A DNA stretch of 62,400 nt, from assembly GCA_029258835.1 (NCBI GenBank), contig JAPDJY010000037.1:1-62400 (forward strand), given 5' to 3'. The notes below the pieces were generated by a model. It made no database searches. It saw nothing but the letters and a program-made list of their open reading frames with translations, and was not told the origin of the DNA. The first letter of the stretch is position 1. The number at the start of each line of letters is the position of its first letter. Position numbers and translations under genes: made by a program. This stretch comes from Thermoproteota archaeon (GTDB lineage Archaea; Asgardarchaeota; Jordiarchaeia; Jordiarchaeales; Freyrarchaeaceae). Positions 30,646 to 62,400 of the stretch are shown here, piece by piece.

Positions 30646-30710
30646 AACGTTATTAACCCGTTTAAAGACCAGCAAAAGAACGCAGCATTAAATCTGTTTC
30701 TCCCCTTTTT

Positions 30711-31802
30711 TCAGGGGAAAAGTTGGGAGCAAAGCTTCACCGCTGGGATTATGTTATATGCTATTCCAAGCATGTGTGGTGAAAGAGAGGCCTTCACATC
30801 CGAGTATATTTCAAACCGGTGCTCGACTTCCCGCTCCATTAACGTTTCATGTAACTCCTCCGCCACCTTAGTTAACCCGAACTCGTCTCTGGCCTCGCAG
30901 CTAAGTGCAACATGTACGTCTCTTAAGGCATCAGGCTTATCCTTAATCAGCGTGTTCAGGTCGTTTTTCCTCCACTCTCCGAGCGCCCTTTCGTTGAAGC
31001 CTACTATCTTCCCCTCCTCGTCTCTTTCGATCGATGACAGCAGCTTTCTCCCCGTAAAGACCAAATCTAGAGTGTCCAGAATGTCGTCCCATGTTAACGC
31101 TCCAAGTTTCTCGGCAAGCTCCCTCCCAATCACCTTCTCGTAGATTGGAATAACCAGTTTCCAATCCAGCAAGTCTAAAGTAACGTTTGCAGGGCTTAAA
31201 GCCACTAATATGGAGAAGAGCTCAGGGTGGTCTATGCATAACCTTAAAGCCCCGTAACCACCCATCGAACCGCCAACCATTGCCCTGCACCTCCTGTCCC
31301 GAATAGTCCTGTAGTTCGACTCCACAAACCTTACTACGTCGTAAACAATGTAATCTTCGTACATTCCCGTGTAAGGAGAGTTAACATAGAAGCTCCCCTT
31401 AGTTTGAACCTCCCCTGTTAAATCCTTCACTCCATGCTTGTGGGGTAGGTGGAGGCTTCCGTCAGGCTGAACGAAAATGAAGGGTTCAACTTCACCATCA
31501 ACAATTAACCTGTCAAACTTCTCGTATGATGCTATACGGTCAACGTCGATCTCCCTTAAAACCTCCGGTGGGATAAGTCCTAAAGGCAAGTTCTTATTGT
31601 CCTCGACACGAGGAGTCACAGTCACCTTCCGGCTATTACCGCTATAACCATGGAGAAAGTATATCACAGGATACCTTCTATCAGACTCAAAGTAGTCTGG
31701 TGGAAGGTAAACATGTAGCTCCCTCTCAACAGGGCCACCAAGCGGGTTCCCCTCTAGGCTCTCCGAGCGAAAATGGTCAACCCTATACCTCAGATTAACC
31801 AC
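30711..31802 (-). CDS. Alpha/beta-hydrolase, putative esterase
   Basis: VYLPPDY, YPVIYFLHG, GGSMGG nucleophile motif. Confidence 0.88.
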   Translation of the reverse strand: MVNLRYRVDHFRSESLEGNPLGGPVERELHVYLPPDYFESDRRYPVIYFLHGYSGNSRKVTVTPRVEDNKNLPLGLIPPEVLREIDVDRIASYEKFDRLIVDGEVEPFIFVQPDGSLHLPHKHGVKDLTGEVQTKGSFYVNSPYTGMYEDYIVYDVVRFVESNYRTIRDRRCRAMVGGSMGGYGALRLCIDHPELFSILVALSPANVTLDLLDWKLVIPIYEKVIGRELAEKLGALTWDDILDTLDLVFTGRKLLSSIERDEEGKIVGFNERALGEWRKNDLNTLIKDKPDALRDVHVALSCEARDEFGLTKVAEELHETLMEREVEHRFEIYSDVKASLSPHMLGIAYNIIPAVKLCSQLFP

Positions 31803-57848: not shown

Positions 57849-58598
57849 TCAAAAGATGTCGAAAAGTCCGGGTGTGGGCAGCTCCCCCACTATTATTTTT
57901 CCTTCAGATCCGTCGACCAGCACCTTATACCTTTTACGTTTGTACGTGTAGGTTACGTCCCATATTGGAGCGTGGAGGTAGTATGTGTCCTTAATTGTAA
58001 AATCTGTTTCATGCTCGATTATTTTGTCGACTTCCCTCCTTGCAAGATATAAGTGGTGTTCCACCACCTCACTTTTCGCCCTTTCTACCGCCTCTTCCTC
58101 ACCGAACTCTGCATTGAGGACCCTAGCGTACTCCGGAATTTTCGTGAAGTCGTAGGGTATTTTTCCTTGAAGTGGGACATCATACTCCCTTGTTGGAAAC
58201 TTTGAGGCCCTCTGCGCTATTATAACCCAGTCGTAACTCCCACTTACGGTGCCCTTCCTCACGTATCCCGGTCCCAAACGCTCGAAAATACCCTTAAACC
58301 TCGTAGTTGCCTCTATAGGAACCACCCAGAAAGGATAAATGAACAATACAGCATCCCTAATTTTAGCACGTTTGGAAAGCAGCTTAGGAGCTAGGAAGCT
58401 TGAATCCATCCATTCCCTAACTATCTCGGCAACATCACCCTTCTCAACATTAACTGGGAGAAGCGCGTGCTCCAGCGTGAAAGGCTTCTCGTACGTCAGA
58501 ATAGTCGTGTATCCACAGTATTTACATGTAGCAACATAATCTCCAGCATTGTAATCAAGTGGCGCCCCACAATGCTCACACTTAATTACAATTTTCAA
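57849..58598 (-). CDS. Zinc-ribbon protein of SPFH-associated loci
   Basis: CEHCGAPL..CKYCG, YPFW, C-terminal VDGSEGKIIVG. Confidence 0.75.
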   Translation of the reverse strand: MKIVIKCEHCGAPLDYNAGDYVATCKYCGYTTILTYEKPFTLEHALLPVNVEKGDVAEIVREWMDSSFLAPKLLSKRAKIRDAVLFIYPFWVVPIEATTRFKGIFERLGPGYVRKGTVSGSYDWVIIAQRASKFPTREYDVPLQGKIPYDFTKIPEYARVLNAEFGEEEAVERAKSEVVEHHLYLARREVDKIIEHETDFTIKDTYYLHAPIWDVTYTYKRKRYKVLVDGSEGKIIVGELPTPGLFDIF

Positions 58599-60282: not shown

Positions 60283-61260
60283 TCACGTAAGCTTGGCTCC
60301 GCAGTTAGGGCAGAACCTAGCATTGAATGGAACTGACGATCCACACTGAGGACAGAATCTTCCGCTTTTTGCTATTCTTTGCCCACAGTTACTGCAGAAC
60401 TTTGCGTTCTGAGAGTTTTGCGCTCCACAGTTAGGACAGATAACAAAGTTTTGAGGTTGAGGCTGCTGTAGGAGCGGTGGGAGGATAGCCACCCCAGCCC
60501 CAAAGGCTGCTCCGGAAGACCGCCCAAGAGCCTCCGCGCTTCTCTCAACGGCCTCCAACGTCCTCGCCCTCTCGCCCTCAACTTGGCCTGTTTGCAGCCA
60601 GAAGAGCCTCTCCCTGTACTCCGGTGTAGTATCCATTCCCTCAAACCTTAAGTCTATAAGGTCTATGCCAAGCCTCCTGAACTGCTCCCTAATTTTAACT
60701 TTAACCTTCATGCTCGTTTCATCCAGCTGAGTAAAAACATCCTGCAACCTAAATGCTGCAAGACTATCTATCACGTTCTCCAGTATGAACCCCCTAACGA
60801 ACTGGTTTACCGCATCGGTGGTGAACGCACTAGCATTACCAACAACTTCAACAACGAAAAGCTTTGGTTCCTCAACCTTAAACCAGAACGTACCATGAAA
60901 CTTTAACGGAGCCAAGTCCCTCGTCTGTCCCTGCCCTCCAAACCTCCCTTGAAACTGAGATGTTGAGACAAAAATAACCTCAGCTGCGAAAGCAGACTTA
61001 TCAAGCATTTGAAGCTTCTGTATAACCTTAGATATCAGTGGAAGATTAGCCGTCGTAAGTTGATGCCTTCCCGGACCAAGAACATCATATGCCTTCCCGT
61101 CCCTAAAAAAGACCGCCACTTGGTTCTCCCTAACTATCAGGTTTGATCCCCACTCTATCCTATCGTTAGGATACCTCCAAACTACCTCGTCACGACCACC
61201 CTTCCACTCTATAACCTTAGGCAACCTTACACCACTCATTCCTTTTATTCCTTTTTTCAC
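60283..61260 (-). CDS. SPFH-domain protein with double zinc ribbon (YdjI-like)
   Basis: VWRYP, LIVRENQVAVFFRDG, PGRHQLTTANLP; C-terminal CPNCG..FCSNCG..CPQCG..FCPNCG. Confidence 0.9.
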   Translation of the reverse strand: MKKGIKGMSGVRLPKVIEWKGGRDEVVWRYPNDRIEWGSNLIVRENQVAVFFRDGKAYDVLGPGRHQLTTANLPLISKVIQKLQMLDKSAFAAEVIFVSTSQFQGRFGGQGQTRDLAPLKFHGTFWFKVEEPKLFVVEVVGNASAFTTDAVNQFVRGFILENVIDSLAAFRLQDVFTQLDETSMKVKVKIREQFRRLGIDLIDLRFEGMDTTPEYRERLFWLQTGQVEGERARTLEAVERSAEALGRSSGAAFGAGVAILPPLLQQPQPQNFVICPNCGAQNSQNAKFCSNCGQRIAKSGRFCPQCGSSVPFNARFCPNCGAKLT

Positions 61261-61877
61261 TCTTTAATCTTCAACATACAATTCTCTCTATCACTAATTT
61301 TTTTATCGATGTCATCAAGAGTACGCCTCAGCCTGAAGATCTGCTGATAAACATCCTTAAAGTTACCTTGCTCCATTCGTCCCTTAAGACTTAAAACATC
61401 CCTGCGAAACACCTCGACATCCTCAAGAACCCCCGCGTCGAACTCGTAAAGCCTGTCAAGCTCCTCCTCTCTAATCTTCACGGCATCGAAAAACCCGGAG
61501 TACCCGTAATCAGCATGGTTAATCCTCTCCGAAACTCTGTCAAGCAACGCCATAAGCCTATCCATCTGATCCCAACTCTCACGAAGGTCATAGTCAATAA
61601 GCATCTCCTGAACCAAGCTCAAATTTGACCTGCACTCCCTCAACACACCATAAACATAGTTTCTAAGTATTTTATCAGTTTCTCTCCGAACTTCCTTAGC
61701 CTTATACCCGTGTTAGCCAGCCCGGAAAAACCAAGACTTATAGCCAGGTATAAGGCTCATCAACTTCTCCAGCAAATTCCTCTTAGCCTGCTTAGAAACC
61801 TCCTTCCTAATCCTCTCAGCAACATCCTCCTTCTTTCTCCTTCCAAACAACCACAAAAACACCACCCCATACTTCAT
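61257..61877 (-). CDS. Conserved hypothetical protein (SPFH operon leader), split by a putative 27-nt BHB intron: exon1 61877-61740, exon2 61712-61257
   Basis: Spliced product reads LLEKLMSLIPGY-HGYKAKEVRRETDKILR...ADYGYSGFFDAVKIREEELDRLYEFD; unspliced has in-frame TAA; start may be TTG at 61856. Confidence 0.75.
61713..61739 (-). other. Putative bulge-helix-bulge intron in mRNA
   Basis: GGCU-AUA-[AGUCUUGG UUUUU CCGGGCU]-GGCU-AAC; flanking 11-bp exon stem AGCCTTATACC/GGTATAAGGCT. Confidence 0.72.
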
Positions 61878-61971: not shown

Positions 61972-62060
61972 GGGCGGGTAGTCTAGCGGTTATGACGCCA
62001 CACAATAGGGCGAAGCTTACGACGTGGAGGTCCCAGGTTCAAATCCTGGCCCGCCCACCA
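61972..62060 (+). tRNA. tRNA-Val(TAC) with 13-nt non-canonical BHB intron (62002-62014, position 30/31), CCA encoded
   Basis: Acceptor GGGCGGG/CCCGCCC, T-arm CCAGG-TTCAAAT-CCTGG; BHB CGCC-ACA...GGCG-AAG; spliced anticodon arm CCACG-CTTACGA-CGTGG. Confidence 0.92.
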
Positions 62061-62127: not shown

Positions 62128-62400
62128 TTACGCCTCGCTGAAAAGCTTTTTCAACCTATTCAACTCAGCTAACATAGCATTCCTTAACTCAGTAATAGAT
62201 GCAGCCTCAGATCTAGTTGTAACAGGTGCAACAGACGGCACACCAGTTGTCGGCGCTGCCGCTGGTGCTGCTGGTGGTGCTGATGGTGGGGCCTTTGGGG
62301 GTGCCGCTGGAGGTGCTTTTGGGGGTGCTGCTGGTGGGGCTGCTGGTGGGGCTGCTGGTGGGGCTGCTGGTGGGGCTGATGGTGGGGCCTTTGGGGGTGC
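62128..62400 (-). CDS. C-terminus of a Pro/Ala-rich protein ending in an amphipathic helix with LKK (5' part outside window)
   Basis: Manual translation (APPx)n...SITELRNAMLAELNRLKKLFSEA*; open for 91 codons. Confidence 0.8.
   Translation of the reverse strand, partial: APPKAPPSAPPAAPPAAPPAAPPAAPPKAPPAAPPKAPPSAPPAAPAAAPTTGVPSVAPVTTRSEAASITELRNAMLAELNRLKKLFSEA
62268..62400 (-). repeat. Coding tandem repeat, 12-bp unit (APPA/APPK/APPS)
   Basis: About 11 copies of a GCNCCNCCA-NNN unit, e.g. GGTGGGGCTGCT on the + strand. Confidence 0.9.

What the first reader, a model, noticed from the sequence alone, without database searches (positions are those of the whole stretch)
61698..61757. Candidate BHB-spliced intron inside a protein-coding gene (mRNA splicing in a putative Asgard archaeon)
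Seen: on the minus strand the gene reads ...ATA CCT GGC TAT [AAGTCTTGGTTTTTCCGGGCTGGCTAA] CAC GGG TAT AAG GCT.... The 27-nt insert (61739-61713) contains an in-frame TAA, so gene callers see only a truncated 129-aa ORF. The RNA can form a bulge-helix-bulge: 4-bp central helix GGCU/GGCU (2 GC, 2 GU), 3-nt bulges AUA and AAC, and an intron hairpin AGUCU(U)GG/CCGGGCU. A perfect 11-bp exon-exon stem (AGCCTTATACC 61757-47 / GGTATAAGGCT 61708-698) flanks it. Established: the archaeal splicing endonuclease EndA cuts after the 2nd nt of each bulge. Here that removes exactly 27 nt and gives IPGY-HGYKAKE, matching the IPG(F/Y)xGY motif I recall for this family. Archaeal mRNA introns are known mainly from crenarchaeal cbf5. 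The same cutting rule correctly splices both tRNAs in this window. Caveats: a one-nt-shifted register (GCUA/UGGC, bulges UAA/UAA) would remove 25 nt and frameshift, and CTGGCTA is repeated at both ends.
Basis: partly seen in the sequence, partly recalled or inferred. Interest (0 to 1): 0.93.

Follow-up and report, generated by a model that had tools for sequence, protein, structure and literature searches.

The report
tRNA-type intron splits Asgard protein gene
A conserved protein gene of an Asgard archaeon (Jordarchaeales) is interrupted by a 27-base insert shaped like a tRNA intron, and relatives keep it at the same codon in other lengths, so the mRNA is very probably spliced by the tRNA-splicing enzymes, which published work documents inside a coding sequence only for cbf5.

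Summary

- **The insert.** It lies on the minus strand at 61739-61713, carries an in-frame TAA, and sits inside the family's most conserved motif. Uninterrupted homologues read PGY-HGYKAKE, which is exactly the predicted junction.
- **Relatives.** Twelve distinct alleles from Jordarchaeales/Freyarchaeota assemblies carry an insert at the same codon boundary, 27 to 31 nt long. Most lengths are not multiples of three, so read-through or a 9-residue insertion cannot explain them.
- **Structure.** All alleles keep a 4-bp helix between two 3-nt bulges. The inner hairpin covaries: 99% of cells pair, against 19-45% in slid controls.
- **Cut sites.** Cutting after the second bulge base restores the conserved protein in every allele.
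- **Selection.** Both exons are under purifying selection.
- **Losses.** Some congeners lack the intron precisely.
- **Machinery.** The genome encodes alpha- and beta-type EndA subunits and RtcB.
- **Other genes.** I found like introns in EF-1alpha, cbf5 and hypD, and in the neighbouring tRNA-Val.

The BHB is relaxed, with a weak outer helix. I found only one tRNA in the window, not two. No RNA run covered the gene.

This scan has already reported such mRNA introns in other Jordarchaeales genomes, including this same gene. No paper in the library searched describes them in Asgard archaea.

The parts
61740..61877 (-). Exon 1, ending ...LIPGY. The longest ORF starts at ATG 61877. The likelier start is TTG 61850, which gives MFGRRKKED..., like the MFGKKNKE of the intron-less homologue P0003.
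   Evidence: Purifying selection among intron-bearing alleles: dN/dS 0.13-0.33.
61713..61739 (-). 27-nt BHB intron with an in-frame TAA at 61715-61713. Predicted cuts lie between 61740|61739 and 61713|61712.
   Evidence: It is absent at exactly this point in intron-less homologues.
61742..61745 (-). 5' strand of the central 4-bp helix (GGCU, exon 1). It pairs with 61715-61718.
   Evidence: Paired in 10 of 10 alleles, with GC/GU changes.
61715..61718 (-). 3' strand of the central helix (GGCU, intron).
61739..61741 (-). 5' bulge AUA, cut after the second base. Relatives have AUA, AUG or ACU.
61712..61714 (-). 3' bulge AAC, cut after the second base. Relatives have AAC, AGC or UGC. It is followed by A61711, which can pair with U61746.
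   Evidence: The U-A pair is possible in 10 of 10 alleles.
61719..61738 (-). Inner intron hairpin: AGUCU(U)GG, loop UUUUU, CCGGGCU.
   Evidence: Three of its pairs show compensatory changes across alleles. In Freyarchaeota alleles it is replaced by GAGCAG/CUGCUC.
61747..61757 (-). Exon-1 arm of the exon-exon stem. It pairs with 61698-61708.
   Evidence: The stem is perfect only in this lineage (-19.4 kcal/mol) and imperfect in relatives (-11 to -15).
61698..61708 (-). Exon-2 arm of the exon-exon stem (codons for G-Y-K-A).
61257..61712 (-). Exon 2 (HGYKAKEVRRETDK... to the stop). Its first 22 codons have no start codon and lie upstream of the 129-aa ORF that gene callers report.
   Evidence: dN/dS of the first 22 codons is 0.09-0.17. 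Matches NCBIfam NF047596 at E 3e-13.
60283..61260 (-). Downstream gene for an SPFH/Band-7 protein with a double zinc ribbon. It overlaps the stop of the intron-bearing gene by 4 nt. The same pairing is seen in the relatives' loci examined.
61972..62057 (+). Neighbouring tRNA-Val(UAC) with a 13-nt intron (about 62002-62014). Helix CGCC/GGCG, bulges ACA and AAG, no inner helix.

Best explanation
The 27 nt at 61739-61713 are an archaeal bulge-helix-bulge (tRNA-type) intron inside a protein-coding gene.

In the pre-mRNA, GGCU of exon 1 pairs with GGCU at the 3' end of the intron. This 4-bp helix is flanked by the bulges AUA and AAC. A hairpin inside the intron and an exon-exon stem hold the motif in place.

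The host's heterotetramer-type splicing endonuclease (EndA alpha plus beta) cuts after the second base of each bulge, and RtcB joins the exons. The result reads ...CCU GGC UAU|CAC GGG UAU..., that is LIPGY-HGYKAKE, and yields a full-length protein of about 190 residues (188-197, depending on the start codon). Unspliced mRNA would give only a 45-54-residue peptide.

The intron was probably gained once in the ancestor of the Jordarchaeales/Freyarchaeota order and lost precisely in some lineages.

Shown here: the anatomy, its conservation and covariation, the exact match of the predicted junction to intron-less homologues, selection on both exons, and the presence of the enzymes. Inferred: cleavage, ligation, and translation of the spliced product.
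For: 1. **Junction.** All full-length homologues have contiguous PG(Y/F)-xGYKxxExRRE. The nearest intron-less ones read PGY-HGYKAKE.
2. **Alleles.** Twelve distinct alleles have an insert at the identical phase-0 site, with lengths 27, 28, 29, 30 and 31 nt. In the 28-, 29- and 31-nt alleles the two exons are in different frames, and every insert has a stop in the exon-1 frame.
3. **Structure.** Of the BHB cells, 99% are paired, against 19-45% when partners are slid. The central helix is paired in 10 of 10 alleles. Three inner-helix pairs show changes on both sides. The inner hairpin of the Freyarchaeota alleles has an unrelated sequence but the same position.
4. **Cut rule.** The canonical rule gives the conserved protein in every allele. 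The 25-nt register does not, and it loses a pair in 7 of 10 alleles.
5. **Selection.** dN/dS is 0.13-0.33 for exon 1 and 0.09-0.17 for the start-less head of exon 2.
6. **Losses.** Intron-less alleles sit among intron-bearing ones in the protein tree and within one genus.
7. **Machinery.** There are two EndA paralogues. One is most like the catalytic subunit of the Aeropyrum pernix heterotetramer over its whole length, including the stretch corresponding to the specific loop. RtcB is present. Asgard EndA is reported as (alpha-beta)2 with the loop that confers broad specificity (PMC5829648).
8. **Same genome.** The same motif and rule restore GHVDHG-KST in EF-1alpha, GTL-DP in cbf5 and CG-THEH in hypD. 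They also splice the adjacent tRNA-Val.
9. **Independent assemblies.** The same 27-nt insert is in two independent metagenome contigs (L070, L071).
Against: - The outer helix next to the 3' bulge is a single U-A pair followed by an irregularity, so the motif is relaxed, not strict.
- Energy minimisation prefers other local pairings: a 5-nt bulge in the window, and a 4x4 internal loop in the Freyarchaeota alleles.
- Exon-exon complementarity is not clearly stronger in intron-bearing than in intron-less alleles.
- The alleles are related, so the covariation counts overstate independence. Most of the both-sided changes separate just two clades.
Confidence: 0.88

Rival explanations
1. Translational recoding. 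The ribosome gets past the insert by stop-codon read-through in the window, by frameshifting in relatives, or by bypassing (hopping) from the Tyr codon to a downstream codon.
For: In the Freyarchaeota alleles a UGA in a hairpin directly follows the Tyr codon. This superficially recalls the take-off site of T4 gene 60. Stop-codon recoding (Sec, Pyl) has been reported for this lineage (PMC9723677).
Against: - Close relatives would need three different mechanisms: read-through for 27 and 30 nt, and +1 or -1 shifts for 28, 29 and 31 nt.
- Read-through would put 9-10 unconserved residues into the family's most conserved motif.
- The triplet before exon 2 (UAA or CAA) does not match the take-off codon UAY. 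Landing on the next UAY would delete H-G-Y from the motif.
- What is conserved is a 4-bp helix between two bulges, not coding capacity.
Confidence: 0.04
2. A broken gene or two separate genes. The insert is a disabling mutation, and only the 129-residue ORF, or nothing, is expressed.
For: Gene callers annotate only truncated ORFs of 114-131 residues in all intron-bearing genomes.
Against: - The interruption is kept across two families at 60-76% protein identity, while exon 1 and the start-less head of exon 2 stay under purifying selection in the correct frames.
- Called starts differ between relatives and cut off the conserved HGYKAKEIRRE motif.
- The essential single-copy EF-1alpha of the same genome carries the same kind of insert.
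Confidence: 0.03
3. EndA cuts the BHB but the exons are not re-joined. The motif would then be an mRNA cleavage or decay site that switches the gene off or separates the transcript.
For: BHB motifs outside coding regions are processed for other purposes, for example in rRNA precursors and in the 5' UTR of HVO_1309 (PMC7714728).
Against: Precise restoration of frame and motif in every allele despite variable lengths is expected only if the joined product matters. RtcB is present.
Confidence: 0.04
4. An assembly or sequencing artefact created the insert.
For: The 7-nt direct repeat CTGGCTA lies at both ends of the insert.
Against: - The identical insert is in two independent metagenome contigs that differ by a nearby synonymous change.
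- Homologous inserts occur in many independent assemblies, including a closed chromosome (CP147778.1).
- The repeat follows from GGCU pairing with GGCU plus bulges that begin with A.
Confidence: 0.01

Closest known systems
BHB intron in the cbf5 pre-mRNA of Crenarchaeota (Desulfurococcales, Sulfolobales; Yokobori et al. 2009, PMC2738675, and the work it cites)
   Same: - A short intron inside a coding sequence.
- An unconventional (relaxed) BHB.
- Predicted cuts between the second and third bulge residues that restore the reading frame.
- A host with hetero-oligomeric EndA.
- Lineage-specific precise loss of the intron.
   Different: A different gene (an uncharacterised partner of an SPFH protein) and a different phylum (Asgard). 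Here it is one of several interrupted protein genes in the genome, whereas cbf5 was described as the only coding-region case (PMC7714728). Splicing of cbf5 was shown by cDNA and in vitro cleavage; nothing of that kind exists here.
Archaeal tRNA introns at non-canonical positions, very abundant in Freyarchaeia and Atabeyarchaeia (PMC11291895; bioRxiv 10.64898/2026.10.13.758758)
   Same: The same motif, the same presumed enzymes and the same size range. The neighbouring tRNA-Val has a 13-nt intron obeying the same rule.
   Different: The host RNA is an mRNA, so exon sequence in the motif is also constrained by coding. Neither paper's text reports introns in protein genes.
BHB intron in the 5' UTR of Haloferax volcanii HVO_1309 (PMC7714728)
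   Same: An mRNA substrate of the splicing endonuclease.
   Different: That intron lies in the UTR and does not interrupt the reading frame.
Unconventional splicing of HAC1/XBP1 mRNA in eukaryotes (my own knowledge, not checked here)
   Same: Spliceosome-independent excision of a short intron from an mRNA, followed by tRNA-ligase-type joining (RtcB in animals). It changes the protein made.
   Different: The nuclease there is IRE1, not the tRNA splicing endonuclease. That splicing is a regulated stress switch; no regulation is shown here.

Membership tests
Archaeal BHB (tRNA-type) intron in a pre-mRNA | [quoted passage not shown] | tested here: met
   GGCU/GGCU with bulges AUA and AAC. The helix is paired in 10 of 10 alleles.
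Archaeal BHB (tRNA-type) intron in a pre-mRNA | Flanking helices on both sides (strict hBHBh'). | tested here: inconclusive
   The inner helix is present and covaries. The outer helix is one U-A pair, then an irregularity, then an exon stem. It fits the relaxed class only.
Archaeal BHB (tRNA-type) intron in a pre-mRNA | Cutting after the second base of each bulge gives the functional, uninterrupted sequence. | tested here: met
   The junction PGY-HGYKAKE equals the intron-less homologues in all 12 alleles, whatever the insert length.
Archaeal BHB (tRNA-type) intron in a pre-mRNA | The host encodes a splicing endonuclease able to cut relaxed motifs, and an RtcB ligase. | tested here: met
   Two EndA paralogues. 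The alpha-like one is nearest to A. pernix 3p1z_B (E 4e-46). RtcB scores 607 bits. Broad specificity itself is inferred from PMC5829648.
Archaeal BHB (tRNA-type) intron in a pre-mRNA | The spliced RNA, the excised circular intron or in vitro cleavage is observed. | not testable with these tools
   No RNA run holds the gene. Four wetland RNA runs laid on the Freyarchaeia homologue gave no cover.
NCBIfam NF047596 (LIMLP_15305 family protein) | Score above the curated cut-off of 210 bits. | tested here: not met
   50 bits, E 3e-13, over residues 65-203. It is a relative of that family, not a member of the equivalog. No Pfam family matches.
Programmed translational bypassing (T4 gene 60 type) | Matching take-off and landing codons bracket the gap, so that decoding resumes at the right residue. 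| tested here: not met
   The take-off would be UAU or UAC. The triplet before exon 2 is UAA or CAA.

The most novel reading that the evidence does not exclude
The intron is kept because splicing acts as a gate. Full-length protein is made only when EndA/RtcB splicing occurs, so tRNA-type splicing would control a membrane-scaffold operon, much as IRE1/RtcB splicing controls HAC1/XBP1 in eukaryotes. The effect could extend to the SPFH/zinc-ribbon gene, whose start overlaps this gene's stop by 4 nt. It would be one instance of routine, possibly regulated, mRNA splicing in the closest prokaryotic relatives of eukaryotes.
Probability: 0.1. Interest if true: 0.9.

Novelty: new member of a known kind. 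Interest (0 to 1): 0.72.

Why it matters
**Published state.** Published work describes endonuclease-dependent splicing inside an archaeal coding sequence only for cbf5 of Crenarchaeota (PMC7714728, PMC2738675). Here a second, unrelated gene carries such an intron in an Asgard archaeon. The same genome has like introns in EF-1alpha, cbf5 and hypD.

**If RNA data confirm it**, three things follow.
- Gene callers systematically truncate or split genes in this order. All seven close homologues with the intron are annotated as fragments of 114-131 residues.
- Counts of pseudogenes and of 'missing' genes in Asgard genomes need revision.
- tRNA-type splicing of mRNAs is a normal part of gene expression in a lineage close to the eukaryotic stem. 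That bears on how intron-containing protein genes and RtcB-type mRNA ligation arose.

**On its own**, this single intron is a further member of a known mechanism, without direct RNA evidence.

Tried and rejected
**RNA evidence.**
- No RNA holder was listed for the window gene or for the homologue on the closed Freyarchaeia chromosome.
- Four wetland RNA runs laid on that homologue gave no cover at all.
- This says nothing about expression.

**Genome-wide scan without homology**. I took structural BHB candidates, required coding potential on both sides, and required a broken frame.
- About 400,000 structural candidates came up. Gene boundaries dominate those that pass.
- Out-of-register controls pass as often as the true register. 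The frame-consistent fraction is about 1/3, rising to 0.49 only for short candidates with strong inner stems.
- The scan recovered the window intron and hypD, but it gives no usable count of introns.

**Exon-exon stem as a discriminator**. Intron-less alleles keep similar complementarity, so it does not separate the two classes.

**The 25-nt register**. Rejected.

**Other points.**
- Minimum-energy folding does not return the BHB in the Freyarchaeota alleles. I do not count this against the motif, because two 3-nt bulges around a GU-rich helix are penalised by the energy model.
- A second tRNA in the window was not found by ARAGORN or Rfam, even at E up to 1.
- Literature searches for mRNA introns in Asgard, Jordarchaeia or Freyarchaeia found none. 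The library lacks most subscription journals.

Full report
**1. What is in the sequence.**

On the minus strand an ORF from 61877 reads ...LLEKLMSLIPGY, then KSWFFRAG and a TAA at 61715-61713. The same frame continues with HGYKAKEVRRETDK... into the 129-residue ORF that an ORF list shows (61646-61257). The 27 nt in question are 61739-61713.

- GGCU (61745-61742) with GGCU (61718-61715);
- bulges AUA and AAC;
- the hairpin AGUCU(U)GG/CCGGGCU;
- an 11-bp exon-exon stem, 61757-61747 with 61708-61698.

The 76-nt region folds better than all 200 dinucleotide shuffles (z = -3.0).

One detail is weaker than described. After the 3' bulge there is a single possible U-A pair, then two unpaired bases, then the exon stem. 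The minimum-energy fold instead extends the exon stem and leaves a 5-nt bulge. This is therefore a relaxed BHB.

**2. The gene.**

The read-through product has no Pfam family. It matches NCBIfam NF047596 (LIMLP_15305 family) below that model's cut-off. The stop overlaps the start of an SPFH/Band-7 gene with a double zinc ribbon (60283-61260), and that pairing recurs in every relative's locus I looked at.

A search of 5.8 billion proteins gave 154 homologues. Every full-length homologue in the alignment (A1) has contiguous PG(Y/F)-xGYKxxExRRExDK. The nearest ones (188 residues, Freyarchaeota) read PGY-HGYKAKE. The nine window codons are a clean insertion into the most conserved motif, and the predicted splice junction is exactly the sequence of the uninterrupted relatives.

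**3. Relatives.**

Seven close homologues were annotated as fragments of 114-131 residues. The DNA shows why. Each has an insert between the same Tyr and His codons. I collected twelve distinct alleles:

| Length | Where |
|---|---|
| 27 nt | the window, plus a near-identical strain in two independent JGI metagenome contigs that differs by a synonymous CAC to CAT next to the site |
| 28 nt | three alleles |
| 29 nt | one allele |
| 30 nt | two alleles |
| 31 nt | four alleles |

The assemblies are labelled Jordarchaeia, Jordarchaeum, Jordarchaeales and Freyarchaeota. They include the closed chromosome CP147778.1.

In the 28-, 29- and 31-nt alleles the two exons lie in different frames. Every insert has a stop in the exon-1 frame.

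Four species of the same genus as two intron-bearing species, and one further contig, have no insert at all. Homologues from other Asgard families are also uninterrupted.

In a protein tree the intron-less sequences sit among the intron-bearing Freyarchaeota ones, although that part of the tree is poorly resolved. [quoted passage not shown]

**4. Structure conservation.**

I aligned ten alleles (A2) and counted the named structure: closing U-A pair, 4-bp helix, 6-bp inner helix.
- 99% of cells pair, against 19-45% when the partners are slid by 1-3 columns.
- The central helix pairs in 10 of 10 alleles, with GC/GU changes.
- Three inner-helix pairs change on both sides.
- The Freyarchaeota alleles carry GAGCAG/CUGCUC where the Jordarchaeales alleles carry AGYYC/GGGCY. 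The hairpin sequence was replaced while its position relative to the bulges was kept.
- Bulge bases vary: AUA, AUG or ACU at the 5' bulge; AAC, AGC or UGC at the 3' bulge.

The sequences are related, and most double changes separate two clades. The counts therefore support the structure but are not independent events.

All intron-bearing alleles use CCU for the Pro codon, whose U can close the 3' bulge. The intron-less alleles of the order use CCC or CCG. This is a small but consistent hint.

**5. Both halves are translated.**

Among intron-bearing alleles, dN/dS values are:

| Region | dN/dS |
|---|---|
| Last 36 codons of exon 1 | 0.13-0.33 |
| First 22 codons of exon 2 (no start codon) | 0.09-0.17 |
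| Rest of exon 2 | 0.07-0.10 |

That rules out a decaying pseudogene. It also rules out a short independent ORF followed by a gene starting at an internal Met.

**6. Machinery and context.**

The genome (2.72 Mb, 91 contigs) has two EndA paralogues and one RtcB.
- One EndA ORF (190 residues) aligns end to end with the catalytic subunit of the Aeropyrum pernix heterotetramer (3p1z_B, E 4e-46). The alignment includes the stretch that forms the Crenarchaea-specific loop there.
- By eye, this ORF keeps Tyr, His and Lys in the expected motifs.
- The second paralogue lacks the His.

This fits the (alpha-beta)2 type with the loop that gives broad substrate range, as reported for Asgard archaea (PMC5829648).

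The tRNA 230 bp upstream on the other strand is tRNA-Val(UAC) with a 13-nt intron. Its motif is helix CGCC/GGCG with bulges ACA and AAG. Removing the 13 nt by the same rule gives a standard tRNA.

**7. Not an isolated case.**

Earlier first-reader notes of this scan listed other candidate mRNA introns in this genome. I tested three myself.

| Gene | Place | Length | Motif restored | BHB features |
|---|---|---|---|---|
| EF-1alpha | C27:28832-28874 (-) | 43 nt | GHVDHG-KST | helix CGGC/GCCG, bulges AAU and AAG, 10-bp inner stem |
| cbf5 | C27:11929-11955 (+) | 27 nt | GTL-DP | helix CACU/GGUG |
| hypD | C36:2539-2555 (-) | 17 nt | FMHVCG-THEH | helix CGGG/CCCG |

- For EF-1alpha, the family model matches only from position 19 onward.
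- For cbf5, the model matches across two in-frame stops. The intron sits after the first letter of the catalytic Asp codon, the same site as the crenarchaeal cbf5 intron (PMC2738675).
- For hypD, the Pfam match starts at model position 29, immediately after the insert.

An essential translation factor cannot be a pseudogene, so this organism must remove such inserts.

My own homology-free scan of the whole genome was too noisy to count them.

**8. Rivals.**

- **Recoding** would need different mechanisms in close relatives, and it would fill the most conserved motif with unconserved residues. Bypassing lacks a matching landing codon.
- **A broken gene** is contradicted by selection on both exons.
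- **Cleavage without ligation** does not explain why every allele restores frame and motif.
- **An assembly artefact** is excluded by independent assemblies.

**9. What is missing.**

There is no RNA evidence. No RNA run was listed as holding the gene, and four wetland RNA runs gave no cover on the Freyarchaeia homologue.

**10. Comparison with what is known.**

The closest known case is the cbf5 intron: relaxed BHB, cuts between the second and third bulge bases, hetero-oligomeric EndA, lineage-specific loss (PMC2738675). A 2020 study states that cbf5 is the only additional BHB intron reported in an archaeal mRNA besides a 5' UTR case (PMC7714728).

Work on Freyarchaeia and other Asgard archaea reports that most tRNA genes carry introns, but says nothing about protein genes (PMC11291895; bioRxiv 10.64898/2026.10.13.758758). 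Seven literature searches found no report of Asgard mRNA introns. The library lacks most subscription journals.

This scan has reported the same phenomenon before in other Jordarchaeales genomes. One first-reader note covers this same gene in another genome, and two follow-ups cite RNA-library contigs with spliced forms of other genes. I did not test those.

**11. Verdict.**

This is a real feature. It is very probably a spliced tRNA-type intron (confidence 0.88). It is a new member of the cbf5-type class in a new gene and phylum, and part of a wider pattern in this genome that looks unpublished.

Noticed in passing
G000 C27:28832-28874 (-), outside the window: EF-1alpha carries a 43-nt BHB insert inside the P-loop (GHVDHG-KST). 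It has a perfect helix CGGC/GCCG, bulges AAU and AAG, and a 10-bp inner stem. The family model matches only from position 19.
   Followed up: partly
G000 C27:11929-11955 (+), outside the window: cbf5 carries a 27-nt in-frame insert with two stops in GTL-DP. It sits after the first letter of the catalytic Asp codon, the same site as the crenarchaeal cbf5 intron (PMC2738675). This raises the question of shared ancestry versus repeated gain at that site.
   Followed up: partly
G000 C36:2539-2555 (-), outside the window: hypD carries a 17-nt insert (helix CGGG/CCCG, bulges ACA and AAG). Removing it gives FMHVCG-THEH. The Pfam HypD match begins at model position 29, right after it.
   Followed up: partly
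window 61972-62057 (+): ARAGORN without intron mode calls this tRNA-Leu(CAA). It is tRNA-Val(UAC) with a 13-nt intron at a non-canonical position, in a bulge-helix-loop motif without an inner helix.
   Followed up: yes
G000 C8:63575-63604 (+), C6:26513-26548 (-), C60:2966-2995 (-): Further candidates from my scan with clean motifs and A-rich bulges. Examples: GACG AA|A, a 10-bp stem, CGTC AA|A; and TCAG AA|A ... CTGA AG|A. I did not check them against homologues.
   Followed up: no
G001 (same family as the window's genome, 95% complete): No homologue of the intron-bearing gene was found with the query used, although three sister genomes have it.
   Followed up: no
window 30696-30733 (+) and 58048-58103 (-): Weak Rfam matches below gathering score: a CRISPR repeat family (24 bits) and a C/D-box sRNA family (25 bits). 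These may well be chance matches.
   Followed up: no
window 62128-62400 (-): An ORF running off the window end encodes a Pro/Ala-rich repeat (APPAAPPKAPP...) followed by a short charged C-terminal tail.
   Followed up: no
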